Shown here: positions 47,161 to 50,827 of the stretch, one piece after another | Layout of the letters: each line of letters starts with the position of its first letter | How positions within the stretch are numbered: position 1 is the stretch's first letter | Assembly: GCF_006345805.1 (NCBI RefSeq) | Contig: NC_043011.1 | Span: forward strand, 45,272,464-45,336,463 | Direction of reading: 5' to 3' | DNA from: Octopus sinensis | Lineage: Eukaryota | Length of the DNA: 64,000 nt | Program-made: the position numbers

Positions 47161-50100
47161 TATATATATATATAGGTACATACTCTCACATATGCTTATA
47201 CATATACATGCATATATACGTATATATATGCTTGTACATATATATGCATATACACGTACATACAAATATGTCCACCCAGCATGGGTGCACCGATGTCACT
47301 GGCATAGATCCCGCCTTTATTTTAACCTTGCGGCTTACATGTAATGGTTTTATGAGTGAACAAATTTAGTTGGTTTCGATCGTTTTTATATCAATCGGTG
47401 GGAGTCTCCTGTAATTTGTTTATATTCATATGTCAAAGATATTCTTTAATCCACATCATTAACTGGTTTGCTATATTATTGTTATTTCCATTCAGAACAG
47501 GTTTGAAAATTTTAATGAAACCTTTATTCTTTTGTTTTTCTGCCAACCTCACTGGTGTCATGTAGTTTGTGGAAAGGAAAAAATTAGAAAGAGAGAGATA
47601 AGTTATATTAAATCGCCGATGCTAAAAACAACAATAACACCGTCCTCTATAGAACCGCCACATTTAGTTGTAAATATATTTTTTAAATTAGAAACATAAA
47701 TGTGACCAGAGTCTTAAGAAATACTTACATTGCTAGAAATAAGAGCTAAGATGCTCCAATGCTGTAGTTGACGAACATGAATGAAAGCATATACACAATC
47801 AGGGAGTTGAATCGCTTTTTCGGATGATTCAGGTCCCTGTTAGTGAATATGCCTTCATTTATGTTCGTCAACTTACAGCATTGGAGCATCTTAGATCTCT
47901 TATTTCTAGCAACAGTAGCACCGTCCTCTATAGAACCGCCACATTTAGTTGGCAAATATTTTTTTTTTAAATTAGAAACATTTTCTGACCACATGTTTCT
48001 GTATGTCGGCTCAATGGACTTTGCTGAACATTAATGTTCTGGATTTGTTGTCTGTGAACTCGTGAACGTTCCGATAATGCCTACCCTCCCTCGCCAAAGA
48101 ATAGTTCCTCGCAGTTAGGGCATTTAATGCATTAGATCAAATTTCTGCTTTTGCAGTTCATATCTGCATTTGTGAAAATCTGTCCATTTTTTTTTTGTTC
48201 TAATGGATCTACCAGTAGGCATCTATTGACACGTTCCACATCTGTTTTCATTACACTTGGATACTGTGAATGTCTTATCCTGTTTGTTCATGTTGAATTT
48301 TGCCTTTGTTAATAGTTTTTTAAGGTTATGTGGTTGCTTTTTACATAAGATAAGTGTTTGATTAGTTATGTTGTTGTTGTTTTTTAATTTTTCACTTTGT
48401 TTCATGATTGGCAAATTTCTTTTGATGATGTTTAAAATGTTTTGGTGAAGCAGTTTGTGTGTTACTAGAAATGGTATTGTGTTCCGTTGATGGGTTCGTC
48501 TTTCTTCCTTTGTTCTACGTTGTTCTATAGGTATCTTTTTTGCTCGCTGTATGCTATTTACTATATATTTCTTTACTACCCACGAGGGGCTAAACACAGA
48601 GTGGACAAACAAGGACAGACAAACGGATTAAGTCGATTATATCGATCCCAGTGAGGTAACTGGTACTTATTCAATCGACCCCGAAAGGATGAAAGGTAAA
48701 GTCGACCTCGGCGGAATTTGAACTCAGAACGTAACGGCAGACGAAATACGGCTACGCATTTCGCCCGGCGTGCAAACGTTTCTGCCAGCTCGCCGCCTTA
48801 TATGCTATTTACTATAGTTTTGCTTGCGCAGAAATCCTGGTATTTAGATCATCTAGTATAGCACAAATTTTCCTGGCTATATTATTCATATATATTATTC
48901 TATACAAATTTACACAAATTCGGCGGAACATATAAGCACTTGACGCGTAATCACAGGGATGTGAGTTCGACTCTCATGGCTGGCCTGTAACGTATTTTTC
49001 TGCAATGTATGGATAATTTATCCTGTTCACGCTATTTTATTAGCATTATCACGCGTTTGAGAATAAAAAAAATTATTTCTGTATCCTTCAATACATCTCA
49101 ACGCTTCTAAAAACAAACTTTCTTTGTTTACTTTCATCGTAAGTTGAATATATCTGTATACGTATGTATATATATATATATCACCGTGACCGACCAGGGT
49201 ATCAGATGTTGCTACACATCGCTGGTCACAATGCGCTTCGCATTTTTTTAGCCTTCAAATGACGCCACCCCGCTGGTATATACATACACAAAACACAATT
49301 ACACATACACACACACACACTTCAGACTATACACAAGCTCACACACATACATATATATATCTATGTATACACACGCACTCAGACACATACATGCATATGT
49401 GTGTGAATGTGTATATATATATATATATATATTATATACGAATATAAACAAGAAGGGTAGTAATATTATTTACTACCAGGTGCCCAGCACAAAAGACGAA
49501 TTAGTCATAAGACAAAAATATTATTCATATAGAAAAATATTATTCATGTAGTTATACAATTAAGGGCTCCTAAATTAAGATGCCGAGTGCTGGGAACACA
49601 AAAAGGGGATGAATTTATCGAGAGTGAAAATCAAAAACGTTTACCGATAACTTTAACTCGAACCGCGGATTTCTGCTTCTTTCTAGCAAAACACAGAATA
49701 TGTTTGCTAAGGCTAGCTTCATCAGCGAGTCGCCTAAATTTAATCGAGGTCTGCAGCGATGTGGGACCATGTGTTGAACCTGACTACTAGCAGATCTTAA
49801 CTTTTCAAATCTCTGCGCAGACGCAAAACTTACACGGCAGTATAGGGCATGCCGGGAAGAATTTTACGAATAAATCCATCATGTAATATGCGAATATAAA
49901 CAAGAAGGGTAGTAATATTATTTACTACCAGGTGCCCAGCACAAAAGACGAATTAGTCATAAGACAAAAATATTATTCATATAGAAAAATATTATTCATG
50001 TAGTTATACAATTAAGGGCTCCTAAATTAAGATGCCGAGTGCTGGGAACACAAAAAGGGGATGAATTTATCGAGAGTGAAAATCAAAAACGTTTACCGAT

Positions 50101-50788
50101 AACTTTAACTCGAACCGCGGTTTCTGCTTCTTTCTAGCAAAACACAGAATATGTTTGCTAAGGCTAGCTTCATCAGCAAGTCGCCTAAATTTAATCGAGG
50201 TCTGCAGCGATGTGGGACCATGTGTTGAACCCGACTACTAGCAGATCTTAACTTTTCAAATCTCTGCGCAGACGCAAAACTTACACACAAAAAGGGGATG
50301 AATTTATCGAGAGTGAAAATCAAAAACGTTTACCGATAACTTTTGTGTTCCCAGCACTCGGCATCTTAATTTAGGAGCCCTTAATTGTATAACTACATGA
50401 ATAATATTTTTCTATATGAATAATATTTTTGTCTTATGACTAATTCGTCTTTTGTGCTGGGCACCTGGTAGTAAATAATATTACTACTCTTCTTGTTTAT
50501 ATTCGCATATTACATGATGGATTTATTCGTAAAATTCTTCCCGGCATGCCCTATACTGCCGTGTAAGTTTTGCGTCTGCGCAGAGATTTGAAAAGTTAAG
50601 ATCTGCTAGTAGTCGGGTTCAACACATGGTCCCACATCGCTGCAGACCTCGATTAAATTTAGGCGACTCGCTGATGAAGCTAGCCTTATCAAACATATTC
50701 TGTGTTTTGCTAGAAAGAAGCAGAAACCGCGGTTCGAGTTAAAGTTATCGGTAAACGTTTTGATTTTCACTCTCGATAAATTCATCCC

Positions 50789-50827
<39 letters not shown>

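What the first reader, a model, noticed from the sequence alone, without database searches (positions are those of the whole stretch)
49439..50792. Retrozyme-like 452-nt hammerhead array: candidate cephalopod self-cleaving circular RNA element
Seen: near-identical 452-bp non-coding units, two in tandem and one exactly unit-length but circularly permuted and inverted, inserted in (TA)n. Each has a type I hammerhead (49656-49730 -, 50108-50181 -, 50666-50739 +) with actcg/cgagt stem I, CUGAUGA, an unusually long stem II, palindromic ACCGCGGU stem III and a GUU site. The unit 2 change in stem I keeps a G-U pair. Established: metazoan non-LTR retrozymes are tandem repeats with one hammerhead per unit that yield circular RNAs and are thought to use Penelope enzymes. 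Inference: differently permuted unit-length copies fit rolling reverse transcription of a circular template, and the high identity suggests recent activity. Caveats: extra A before GAAA in all units and a 1-nt insertion in stem III of unit 1.
Basis: partly seen in the sequence, partly recalled or inferred. Interest (0 to 1): 0.85.

Follow-up and report, generated by a model that had tools for sequence, protein, structure and literature searches.

The report
Hammerhead-bearing tandem retroelement in octopod DNA
A 452-base non-coding repeat with a hammerhead-ribozyme-like motif sits as a tandem-plus-inverted cluster inside a TA microsatellite, which is the anatomy of a small parasitic element copied by Penelope-type enzymes; the kind is known, and activity is untested here.

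Summary
Positions 49439-50792 contain 1.9 tandem units (period 452) on the minus strand, a 59-nt extra piece, and an inverted copy that is one full turn of the unit to within 2 nt. All of it lies inside the (TA)n tail of a SINE. Each copy carries a type I hammerhead-like motif at the stated coordinates. A relaxed descriptor finds it about 0.005 times per shuffled window.

The motif is not canonical. Rfam gives no hammerhead match, even at E<=10 on 126 nt. It is found only if an extra unpaired A is allowed on both sides of the base of helix II (equivalent to an A.A at 10.1/11.1). The hammerhead fold lies 6-9 kcal/mol above the MFE. Helix I of 5-6 bp, a nucleotide after A9, G-C next, and a palindromic helix III that can form an 8-bp duplex in a dimer match the published Penelope-type hammerheads.

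The partial tandem, inverted upstream copy, microhomology joints and microsatellite target match published Penelope-like insertion anatomy. No RT or GIY-YIG ORF was found nearby.

Best reading: a recently inserted, non-autonomous Penelope-mobilised hammerhead element (non-LTR retrozyme-like), a new member of a known kind. Cleavage, circular RNA and genome-wide copies could not be tested.

The parts
49412..49438 (.). Left flank: (TA)10 TTATATA. It shares a 24-nt string with the right flank, so it is a possible target-site duplication.
   Evidence: Inconclusive, because 8 of 48 TA runs in the window are followed by TTAT.
49439..49890 (-). Unit 1, a full 452-nt period. The sense strand is the minus strand. 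The 3' end of the array lies at 49439, which is s222.
49655..49731 (-). Hammerhead-like motif 1. It has a private extra U between A15.1 and helix III. The predicted cut is between 49661 and 49660.
49891..50286 (-). Unit 2, a 5'-truncated copy of 396 nt that starts at s278.
50107..50182 (-). Hammerhead-like motif 2. It has a private C->U in helix I (a CpG transition that leaves G.U). The predicted cut is between 50113 and 50112.
49661..50112 (-). The single 452-nt monomer that cuts at motifs 2 and 1 would release from a minus-strand transcript.
   Evidence: length 452 between the two predicted cuts. Prediction only.
50285..50343 (-). 59-nt piece, s7->65, identical to 49596-49654. It is joined to unit 2 by 2 nt of microhomology and to the inverted copy by 3 nt (TTT).
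   Evidence: junction letters read
50344..50792 (+). Inverted copy with sense on the plus strand: s61->452,1->59, one turn of the unit. Its 3' end (s59) abuts the right (TA)n.
50665..50740 (+). Hammerhead-like motif 3. It has a private G->U that breaks a G-C pair in distal helix II. The predicted cut is between 50734 and 50735.
50792..50827 (.). Right flank: (TA)16 TTAT, which is the microsatellite tail of the adjacent SINE-like element.
50826..51045 (-). Body of a SINE-like repeat whose (TA)n tail received the insertion (context only).
   Evidence: 20 further matches of this piece in the window. It forms the 3' part of the tRNA-like SINE family.

Best explanation
This is one young insertion of a small non-coding retroelement. 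Its 452-nt unit carries a Penelope-type, type I hammerhead-like motif. In other words it is a non-autonomous element of the kind called non-LTR retrozyme, mobilised in trans by the RT/GIY-YIG protein of a Penelope-like element (PLE).

Shown directly by the sequence:
- the unit, its three copies and their phases;
- the motif;
- the microsatellite target;
- the microhomology joints;
- the absence of an ORF.

Inferred mechanism:
1. The PLE protein nicked both strands of the (TA)n tail of a SINE and primed reverse transcription from both nicks.
2. From the left nick a cDNA started at s222, ran 1.9 turns on a circular or multimeric template, and switched at a 2-nt microhomology to s65. It ended at s7, six bases short of the 5' end that hammerhead cleavage would create.
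3. From the right nick a cDNA started at s59 and stopped after one turn at s61. This is what an RT without strand displacement would do on a circle.
4. The two cDNA 3' ends were joined at a TTT/AAA microhomology.

Predicted behaviour of this locus. A minus-strand transcript could release one 452-nt monomer by cuts at 50113/50112 and 49661/49660. The most likely route is a double hammerhead in which the palindromic ACCGCGGU segments of two motifs form an 8-bp helix III. The monomer could then be ligated to a circle. Each of the three motifs now carries a private mutation, so this particular locus may be a decaying copy.
For: Repeat anatomy and phases.

Motif. CUGAUGA, GAAA and UH lie in the right order around three helices in all 3 copies. 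Chance expectation is 0-0.005 per shuffled window.

Match to the Penelope-type hammerhead features listed in PMC4209133 (passages):
- helix I of 4-5 bp (here 5 plus a G.U);
- a longer than usual helix II;
- a nucleotide between A9 and 10.1 (here A);
- G10.1-C11.1 (here G-C after that A);
- a palindromic helix III/loop 3 (here ACCGCGGU), with a duplex energy of -14.1 kcal/mol in a dimer.

Match to retrozyme features in PMC7229834 (passages):
- tandem repeats of 150-450 bp;
- GC below 45-50% (37.8%);
- no ORF, LTR, PBS or PPT;
- target-site duplications, when present, longer than 4 bp.

Match to PLE insertion anatomy in PMC8557442 (passages):
- a partial tandem with a 5'-truncated upstream copy;
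- an inverted copy adjacent at the 5' end;
- an insertion bias for microsatellites, including (TA)n.

PMC11167929 (main text read): a purified PLE protein cleaves and extends both strands at AT-rich DNA and starts reverse transcription internally, a little 3' of the hammerhead. Here two of the three cDNA starts lie at s59 and s65.

No RT or GIY-YIG domain was found in 20 scanned ORFs.

Youth. There are 6 private changes in 1356 nt, and 2 of the 4 substitutions are CpG transitions.

Host. An octopod-like SINE lies beside the array. Octopus vulgaris is reported to hold 30 recently active Penelope families (PMC13282606, passages).
Against: No Rfam hammerhead model matches, even at E<=10 on a 126-nt stretch.

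The motif needs an unpaired A on both sides of the base of helix II, or an A.A at 10.1/11.1. It is missed both by a strict descriptor and by one that allows only the published extra nucleotide after A9. I found no precedent for an extra nucleotide 5' of G12 in the passages I read. The nearest case is a U.U mismatch at the base of helix II in an axolotl ribozyme with weak activity.

The hammerhead fold is 6-9 kcal/mol less stable than the MFE of the 94-95-nt segment.

The circular monomer is only modestly structured (60% paired, z -1.56 against 100 mononucleotide shuffles), whereas retrozyme circles are described as highly self-paired.

At 452 nt the unit is at or above the top of the reported size ranges.

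Three near-identical copies give no covariation.

There is no other copy in the window, so multi-copy status is unknown.

Only 15 of the 41 ORFs >=75 aa within 45.5-54.8 kb, and 10 of the 71 ORFs >=110 aa in the window, were scanned. Degraded RT remnants are therefore not excluded.

In a Xenopus study only 1 of 9 retrozyme dimers cleaved in vitro (bioRxiv 10.64898/2026.07.22.740005, passage).

The target-site duplication is inconclusive.
Confidence: 0.6

Rival explanations
1. The same element family, but with no circular RNA and no working ribozyme. The copies were made from an unprocessed multimeric linear transcript of a donor array, as proposed for an autonomous PLE. The hammerhead-like box is a weak or protein-dependent relic, and the one-turn length of the inverted copy is coincidence.
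For: [quoted passage not shown] PLE hammerheads cleave poorly in vitro (PMC4209133). The motif here is non-canonical and its fold is thermodynamically disfavoured. Successive turns of the array differ at 3 sites in 174 nt, which heterogeneous donor units would explain.
Against: Under random breakpoints, an inverted copy that starts and ends at the same phase to within 2 nt has a chance of about 5 in 452 (my arithmetic). The 59-nt piece ends 6 nt from the predicted ribozyme-made 5' end. Two of the 3 differences between turns are CpG transitions, which ordinary decay after insertion explains.
Confidence: 0.2
2. Not a separate non-autonomous family. The 452-nt unit is simply the pseudo-LTR or terminal region of an autonomous Penelope-like element, present here as heavily truncated copies.
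For: The hammerhead is of the Penelope type. The insertion anatomy is that of PLEs. In vertebrates the pLTR and non-LTR retrozymes are reported as close relatives (abstract of bioRxiv 10.64898/2026.07.22.740005). An AUG inside the CUGAUGA box opens a 22-codon frame, which recalls a PLE whose ORF begins at helix II.
Against: The head-to-tail period is 452 nt and the join is seamless, so the copied template itself had a 452-nt period rather than about 3 kb. No RT/EN domain was found in the 20 ORFs scanned.
Confidence: 0.12
3. A local DNA-level duplication and inversion (minisatellite or segmental rearrangement), or an assembly artefact, in which the hammerhead-like box is a chance resemblance with no function.
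For: Rfam is negative. There is no other copy in the window. Complex tandem/inverted PLE structures are said to cause assembly problems (PMC8557442). Two of the six differences between copies are single-base indels (one of them in a run of T), a typical long-read error.
Against: The motif is expected 0-0.005 times per window by chance, and it also carries four unrequested Penelope-type traits. The whole cluster lies inside one microsatellite tail and has microhomology joints. The four substitutions between copies argue for distinct genomic copies.
Confidence: 0.08

Closest known systems
Metazoan non-LTR retrozymes (Cervera & de la Pena 2020, PMC7229834; coral, mussel, axolotl)
   Same: Non-coding, low-GC, head-to-tail repeats of a few hundred bp with one type I hammerhead per unit. 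No LTR, PBS or PPT. Weak helix III with a palindromic loop that suggests action as a dimer. Presumed mobilisation by PLEs.
   Different: The hammerhead is not the canonical type. Helix II is a 45-nt element made of 3 bp, an internal loop and a 12-bp hairpin, with an extra A on each side of its base. No Rfam match. The unit (452 nt) is at the top of the size range. The predicted circle is only modestly self-paired. An inverted one-turn copy is attached; 'inverted' occurs 0 times in the main text of that paper. RNA was not examined.
Minimal hammerheads in pseudo-LTRs of Penelope-like elements (Cervera & de la Pena 2014, PMC4209133)
   Same: Helix I of 4-5 bp without a clear loop 1. A long helix II. 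A nucleotide between A9 and G10.1. A G10.1-C11.1 pair. A palindromic 15.2-16.2/loop 3. Tandem context. Microsatellite and AT-rich targets. Tandem/inverted insertion anatomy.
   Different: There is no RT/GIY-YIG ORF between the repeats, and the period is 452 nt rather than about 3 kb. There is an additional unpaired A 5' of G12. Helix II is far longer than the 6-8 bp reported.
Newt satellite 2 and Schistosoma Sm-alpha hammerhead repeats (recalled from the literature and named)
   Same: Tandem genomic repeats of about 330 bp that are transcribed and self-cleave. The newt ribozyme is active as a dimer through a short helix III.
   Different: Those ribozymes have the canonical core, a short helix II and the loop 1-loop 2 contacts, and they belong to the Rfam Hammerhead_1 type (recalled). 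This one has none of these by test.
Plant LTR retrozymes (PMC4918200; seen in search listing and citing passages only)
   Same: Non-autonomous, hammerhead-bearing elements thought to spread through circular RNA.
   Different: The plant elements have type III hammerheads inside about 350-bp LTRs, PBS and PPT motifs, 4-bp target-site duplications, high GC, and Gypsy-type helpers.

Membership tests
Hammerhead ribozyme, type I | Conserved core boxes CUGANGA ... GAAA ... UH in order, with helix I open | tested here: met
   All 3 copies have CUGAUGA, GAAA and U-U before the cut, and helix I is the open helix.
Hammerhead ribozyme, type I | Core contiguous with helix II (A9 next to 10.1, 11.1 next to G12), as in canonical or published Penelope-type descriptors | tested here: not met
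   A strict descriptor gives 0 of 3 copies. A descriptor allowing only a nucleotide after A9 gives 0 of 3. All 3 are found only with an extra A also 5' of G12, which is equivalent to an A.A at 10.1/11.1.
Hammerhead ribozyme, type I | Match to a curated covariance model (Rfam hammerhead families) | tested here: not met
   No hammerhead family at gathering score, at E<=10 on 1601 nt or at E<=10 on 126 nt.
Hammerhead ribozyme, type I | Helices supported by covariation | not testable with these tools
   Only three 98.6-100% identical copies exist. The one helix I change is a CpG C->T that leaves G.U, and the one helix II change breaks a pair. No animal genome collection is available.
Hammerhead ribozyme, type I | Site-specific self-cleavage | not testable with these tools
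   This needs in vitro transcription. Indirect hint only: the 59-nt piece ends 6 nt from the predicted cut.
Metazoan non-LTR retrozyme | Short head-to-tail repeats (150-450 bp), one type I hammerhead per unit, low GC, no ORF/LTR/PBS/PPT | tested here: met
   Period 452. GC 37.8% and no ORF. One motif per unit. PBS and PPT were not searched for specifically.
Metazoan non-LTR retrozyme | Canonical type I hammerhead with typical helix sizes and loop 1-loop 2 contacts | tested here: inconclusive
   Helix I has 6 pairs and is followed by a bulge. Helix II has 3 bp (4 if the A.A is counted) and is followed by an internal loop. This mimics the 6 bp/4 bp geometry, but the conserved loop nucleotides could not be compared. 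The mussel ribozymes also lack most of them.
Metazoan non-LTR retrozyme | Abundant linear and circular monomer RNA; highly self-paired circle | tested here: inconclusive
   RNA is not testable here. The predicted circular MFE is -102.2 kcal/mol with 60% paired, z -1.56 against 100 shuffles, which is only modestly structured.
Metazoan non-LTR retrozyme | Dispersed multi-copy family in the genome, co-existing with PLEs | not testable with these tools
   No other copy in 64 kb. No animal genome collection is open. Literature only: Penelope families are active in Octopus vulgaris.
Autonomous Penelope-like element (pLTR-ORF-pLTR) | ORF with a telomerase-like RT and a GIY-YIG endonuclease between the repeats | tested here: not met
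   No such ORF fits in a 452-nt period. None of the 20 scanned ORFs has RT or GIY-YIG. 15 of the 41 ORFs >=75 aa within 45.5-54.8 kb were scanned.
Penelope-type insertion anatomy | Partial tandem with a 5'-truncated upstream copy, an inverted copy at the 5' end, and a microsatellite/AT-rich target | tested here: met
   On the sense (minus) strand the order is: inverted copy, 59-nt piece, truncated unit, full unit. The cluster lies between two (TA)n stretches. Compared with the passages.

The most novel reading that the evidence does not exclude
This single locus may be a molecular fossil of how retrozyme RNA is copied into DNA.

- The inverted copy starts at s59 and stops at s61. That is what an RT does when it runs once round a covalently closed circle and meets its own primer.
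- The 59-nt piece starts at almost the same template position (s65) and ends 6 nt from the 5' end that hammerhead cleavage would make. That is what a run-off on a cleaved linear monomer would give.
- The two cDNAs come from opposite strands of one target.

If this pattern recurs at other insertions of the family, it would be sequence-level evidence for three things that are so far only proposed for metazoan retrozymes: a circular template, in vivo ribozyme cleavage, and two-sided priming by a Penelope-type enzyme at a preferred start about 60 nt 3' of the ribozyme.
Probability: 0.25. Interest if true: 0.7.

Novelty: new member of a known kind. Interest (0 to 1): 0.42.

Why it matters
Hammerhead-bearing tandem repeats are known from corals, mussels, flukes, amphibians and other animals. 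My four literature searches on cephalopods (and the wider) found no paper that describes one in a cephalopod. Those searches cover open-access papers and bioRxiv only.

The element extends the known range of hammerhead shapes tied to Penelope-type elements. It has a very long, interrupted helix II and an A.A or double bulge at its base.

It also offers a clean, young insertion in which both ends, both strands and all joints can be read. That makes the disputed question of the template (circle or multimeric transcript) testable by tabulating the ends of the other genomic copies.

Taken alone, it is one ordinary mobile-element insertion in a repeat-rich intergenic region.

Tried and rejected
Rfam. 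Three scans covered the array and one covered the second hammerhead-like site. None gave a hammerhead match. The sub-threshold miRNA-family rows all lie in the CA/TA microsatellite left of the array, and I reject them as low-complexity artefacts.

Tandem Repeats Finder. It did not report the 452-nt period, because there are fewer than two full copies. It found only a 19-nt internal duplication in each unit.

tRNA scan. It found 0 genes, although the neighbouring SINE head looks tRNA-derived.

Pfam on 20 ORFs. No family reached its cut-off. The four weak rows (NLRX1_C, Kazal_C7, eIF2A, DUF6069; E 0.02-0.09) are rejected as noise.

Target-site duplication. The flanks share 24 nt, but 8 of 48 TA runs (these two included) are followed by TTAT, so I do not claim a duplication.

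Rod-like circle. Not supported.

The fourth descriptor hit, at 32931-32965(-). I first took it for a second working-type hammerhead. The alignment of its four family copies shows CCGACGA in 3 of 4, so the CUGACGA there is probably a CpG C->T change. I report it only in passing.

In the alignment, the 'substitutions' at positions 60 and 62 come from three flank bases that I included at the end of the inverted copy. The one at 444 is the 1-nt indel. None of these three is counted as a substitution.

Paper PMC5785218 (Lunse et al.) is not held, so I cite it from the reference list seen only.

Supplementary files were not opened. The supplementary figures of PMC4209133 and PMC7229834 show the ribozyme variants and the insertion model, and they could hold a precedent for the extra nucleotide 5' of G12.

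I made no scan, so genome-wide copies of the unit stayed unchecked.

Structure prediction, fold search, complex prediction, the representative search and the atlas were not used, because the element is non-coding.

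Full report
WHAT IS THERE

The sequence at 49439-50792 is a compact cluster of one 452-nt unit. The repeat finder gives two direct blocks with spacings of 452 and 451, a 59-nt triple repeat, and inverted arms of 386, 201 and 175 nt at 98-99% complementarity. 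blastn of unit 1 against the whole window returns 23 rows. Five are the pieces of this cluster (100%, 99.2%, 98.6%, 99.4% and 100% identity). The other 18 are <=38 nt with E>=0.007. So the window holds no other copy.

I numbered the unit from the first base 3' of the predicted ribozyme cut (s1 to s452) and located every end on a trimer of the unit.
- The minus-strand array, 50286->49439, reads s278->452, 1->452, 1->222.
- The 59-nt piece, 50343->50285, reads s7->65.
- The inverted copy, 50344->50792 on the plus strand, reads s61->452, 1->59.

The inverted copy is therefore one turn lacking a single T. It has 2 nt of redundancy if the ambiguous TTT at 50341-50343 is given to it. The joints carry microhomology: 2 nt at 50285-50286 and 3 nt at 50341-50343 (read).

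THE FLANKS

The left flank is a CA/TA microsatellite that ends in (TA)10TTATATA. The right flank is (TA)16TTAT followed by a repeat body. That body has 20 further matches in the window and forms the 3' part of a tRNA-like SINE family with dozens of matches. The element therefore landed in the (TA)n tail of a SINE.

The two flanks share a 24-nt string, which could be a long target-site duplication. However, 8 of the 48 TA runs of >=8 units in the window (these two included) are followed by TTAT. I leave the duplication open.

THE RIBOZYME-LIKE MOTIF

All three copies read, 5' to 3':
- helix I: ACUCG, plus a G.U;
- CUGAUGA;
- an A;
- GCU;
- an internal loop;
- a 12-bp hairpin with a 3-nt loop;
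- AGC;
- an A;
- GAAA;
- CCGCGG;
- UU, then the cut;
- CGAGU.

My descriptor requires helix I >=4-5 bp, CUGANGA, helix II >=3 bp, GAAA, a short hairpin or palindrome, and UH. It allows one optional nucleotide on each side of helix II. It finds exactly these three sites, plus one more at 32931-32965(-). In 200 dinucleotide shuffles per setting, 1, 0 and 1 shuffles gave any hit. I wrote the descriptor after seeing the motif, so these figures are generous. Even so, a chance origin is unlikely.

The motif also shows traits that I did not ask for and that PMC4209133 lists for Penelope-type hammerheads (passages):
- helix I of 4-5 bp without a clear loop 1;
- a longer helix II;
- a nucleotide between A9 and 10.1;
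- a G10.1-C11.1 pair;
- a palindromic 15.2-16.2 and loop 3.

As a monomer, helix III is only A-U and C-G around a CGCG loop. Two motifs can form an 8-bp ACCGCGGU duplex (-14.1 kcal/mol). That is the dimer arrangement described for newt, PLE and amphibian retrozyme hammerheads.

EVIDENCE AGAINST A WORKING HAMMERHEAD

- Rfam 15 gives no hammerhead match at gathering score on the window, at E<=10 on 1601 nt or at E<=10 on 126 nt around one copy.
- A strict descriptor misses all three copies. So does one that allows only the published extra base after A9.
- The unusual feature is the A between C11.1 and G12. Read another way, it is an A.A mismatch at 10.1/11.1.
- The nearest precedent I read is the U.U mismatch at the base of helix II in an axolotl retrozyme ribozyme, which cleaved 22% in an hour as a monomer.
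- The best fold that contains the three helices is 6-9 kcal/mol above the MFE of the 94-95-nt segment (-14.1/-13.1/-8.9 against -22.3/-19.7/-17.9).
- PLE hammerheads are reported to cleave poorly in vitro.
- A PLE hammerhead needed its protein to cleave.
- Only 1 of 9 Xenopus retrozyme dimers cleaved in vitro.

Activity here is therefore open.

THE COPIES AND THEIR AGE

Aligned in register, the copies differ by four substitutions and two 1-nt indels:
- s205 C->T in the inverted copy;
- s332 G->A in the full unit;
- s386 C->T in the truncated unit;
- s406 G->T in the inverted copy;
- a T lost from a T-run in the inverted copy;
- the extra U in helix III of unit 1.

That is 6 events in 1356 nt. 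The 222-nt overlap of the two 3' parts and the 59-nt piece are identical to the full unit. Two of the four substitutions (s332, s386) are CpG transitions, the signature of decay of methylated DNA.

The 'G-U kept' in helix I is one of these CpG transitions, and a C->T in a helix always leaves a wobble. Three of the six events lie in the hammerheads, which make up 17% of the sequence. So there is no sign of constraint at this locus.

The octopus calibration quoted in PMC13282606 is a distance of 0.09 for about 25 My. With it, 0.44% suggests an age of the order of one million years. This is an inference, and the species is not established.

WHAT THE UNIT IS NOT

It has no ORF. There are 26-31 stops per frame in a trimer, and the longest open stretch is 85 codons. 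GC is 37.8%.

The predicted circular fold (-102.2 kcal/mol, 60% paired) is only 1.56 sd below 100 mononucleotide shuffles. The 'highly self-paired' property of described retrozyme circles is therefore not evident.

I gave Pfam 10 of the 71 ORFs >=110 aa in the window. I then gave it 10 more of the 41 ORFs >=75 aa within 45.5-54.8 kb, so 15 of those 41 were covered in all. None matched RT or GIY-YIG, and nothing reached a curated cut-off.

HOW IT MOST LIKELY AROSE

Read on the sense (minus) strand, the order is: inverted copy, short piece, 5'-truncated unit, full unit. This is the arrangement described for PLE insertions: a partial tandem that forms a pseudo-LTR, often with an inverted 5'-truncated copy next to the 5' end, and a bias for microsatellites including (TA)n (PMC8557442).

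The only biochemical study of a PLE protein that I found (PMC11167929, main text) shows the following:
- cleavage and extension of both DNA strands at AT-rich sites;
- reverse transcription starting inside the RNA, a little 3' of the hammerhead, at sites not homologous to the target.

On that basis I infer two cDNAs.
1. One was primed from the left nick at s222. It ran 1.9 turns, switched at a 2-nt microhomology to s65, and ended at s7.
2. One was primed from the right nick at s59 and ended at s61.
Their 3' ends were joined at TTT/AAA.

Two of the three starts (s59, s65) nearly coincide, which fits a preferred internal start about 60 nt 3' of the ribozyme.

The one-turn stop is what a circle would impose. 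Under random breakpoints it has a chance of about 5 in 452. The end at s7 is 6 nt from the 5' end that cleavage would create. These two points favour the circular-RNA/cleaved-RNA model of PMC7229834 and PMC7761336. They rest on one locus. The 1.9-unit array is explained equally well by a multimeric transcript, the substrate favoured.

HOST

A stop-to-stop ORF across the neighbouring SINE (P0001) gave one hit among 3 candidates: an NCBI hypothetical protein of Argonauta hians, at 80% identity over 49% of the query, E 9.5e-12. Argonauta is an octopod. This supports a cephalopod origin, probably an octopod, but it does not name the species.

COMPARISON AND NOVELTY

By anatomy the element works like a non-LTR retrozyme and like a miniature PLE.
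- As a retrozyme, it meets the structural criteria. It does not show the canonical ribozyme, and its RNA is untested.
- As an autonomous PLE, it fails the ORF criterion.
- As a hammerhead, it meets the box-and-helix criterion but fails the covariance-model and contiguity tests.

The 2026 preprint (abstract) argues that animal retrozymes are non-autonomous PLE derivatives. This element, with a PLE-type ribozyme and PLE-type insertion anatomy in a 452-nt non-coding unit, fits that view.

Searches for 'hammerhead ribozyme' + octopus (5 papers, none on the subject), retrozyme + cephalopod (2 papers, both versions of PMC8557442) and Penelope-like + octopus (9 papers) found no description of such an element in cephalopods. 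The library holds open-access papers and bioRxiv only.

I rate it a new member of a known kind. Its interest is moderate, raised somewhat by the legible insertion joints.

Noticed in passing
32931-32965 (-); family copies at 32840-33010 (-), 43139-43312 (+), 40350-40523 (-), 51550-51718 (+): A second repeat family carries a minimal hammerhead-like box: GUUU, C(C/U)GACGA, an A, GAGC..GCUC, GAAA, CG, UU, AAAC. It has no helix III, a palindromic CG, a base after A9 and G-C next, exactly the published Penelope minimal type. However, 3 of the 4 copies have C instead of the conserved U4 (CCGACGA). Every copy ends in GUUUGGAUUAAC, 80-102 nt 3' of the box, directly against a TA or CATA microsatellite. 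These look like 5'-truncated Penelope-type 3' ends. One copy lies about 760 nt to the right of the array. Rfam gives no match.
   Followed up: partly
51132-51420 (+) and dozens of other sites, e.g. 62191-62499, 30101-30409, 41177-41489, 38160-38466: A tRNA-like SINE family (head plus body plus microsatellite tail) fills much of the window, at 73-92% identity between copies. ARAGORN calls no tRNA. A frame across one copy matches an Argonauta hians hypothetical protein, so some annotated cephalopod 'proteins' are probably translated SINEs.
   Followed up: partly
61161-61300 (+): Three consecutive 50-nt matches to positions 25-74 of the SINE head lie at 45-nt spacing. This is a short internal tandem amplification of a SINE fragment.
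   Followed up: no
50674-50742 (+) and the same place in the other two copies: The AUG inside the CUGAUGA box opens a 22-codon frame. It runs through helix II and helix III and stops at a UAA 5 nt after the predicted cut. In the anole PLE the ORF starts at helix II. This may be a relic of a PLE ORF start, or it may be chance.
   Followed up: no
49351-49450: Sub-threshold Rfam rows for several miRNA families (mir-3149, mir-297, mir-568, mir-1277 and others; 15-47 bits against gathering scores of 70-171) all fall on the CA/TA microsatellite. They are low-complexity artefacts.
   Followed up: yes
35329-35428: A run of 100 N (assembly gap) lies inside a long, interrupted (TA)n region at 35132-35327. 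It was left as it is.
   Followed up: no
49148-49276 (+) and 1737-1865 (-): The sequence just left of the microsatellite is itself a repeat, with an 89% identical copy at the start of the window. The array therefore sits between two other mobile-element remnants.
   Followed up: no
49500-49551, 49952-50003, 50393-50430: Each unit contains a 19-nt internal direct duplication (AAAAATATTATTCATATAG, 2-2.5 copies).
   Followed up: no
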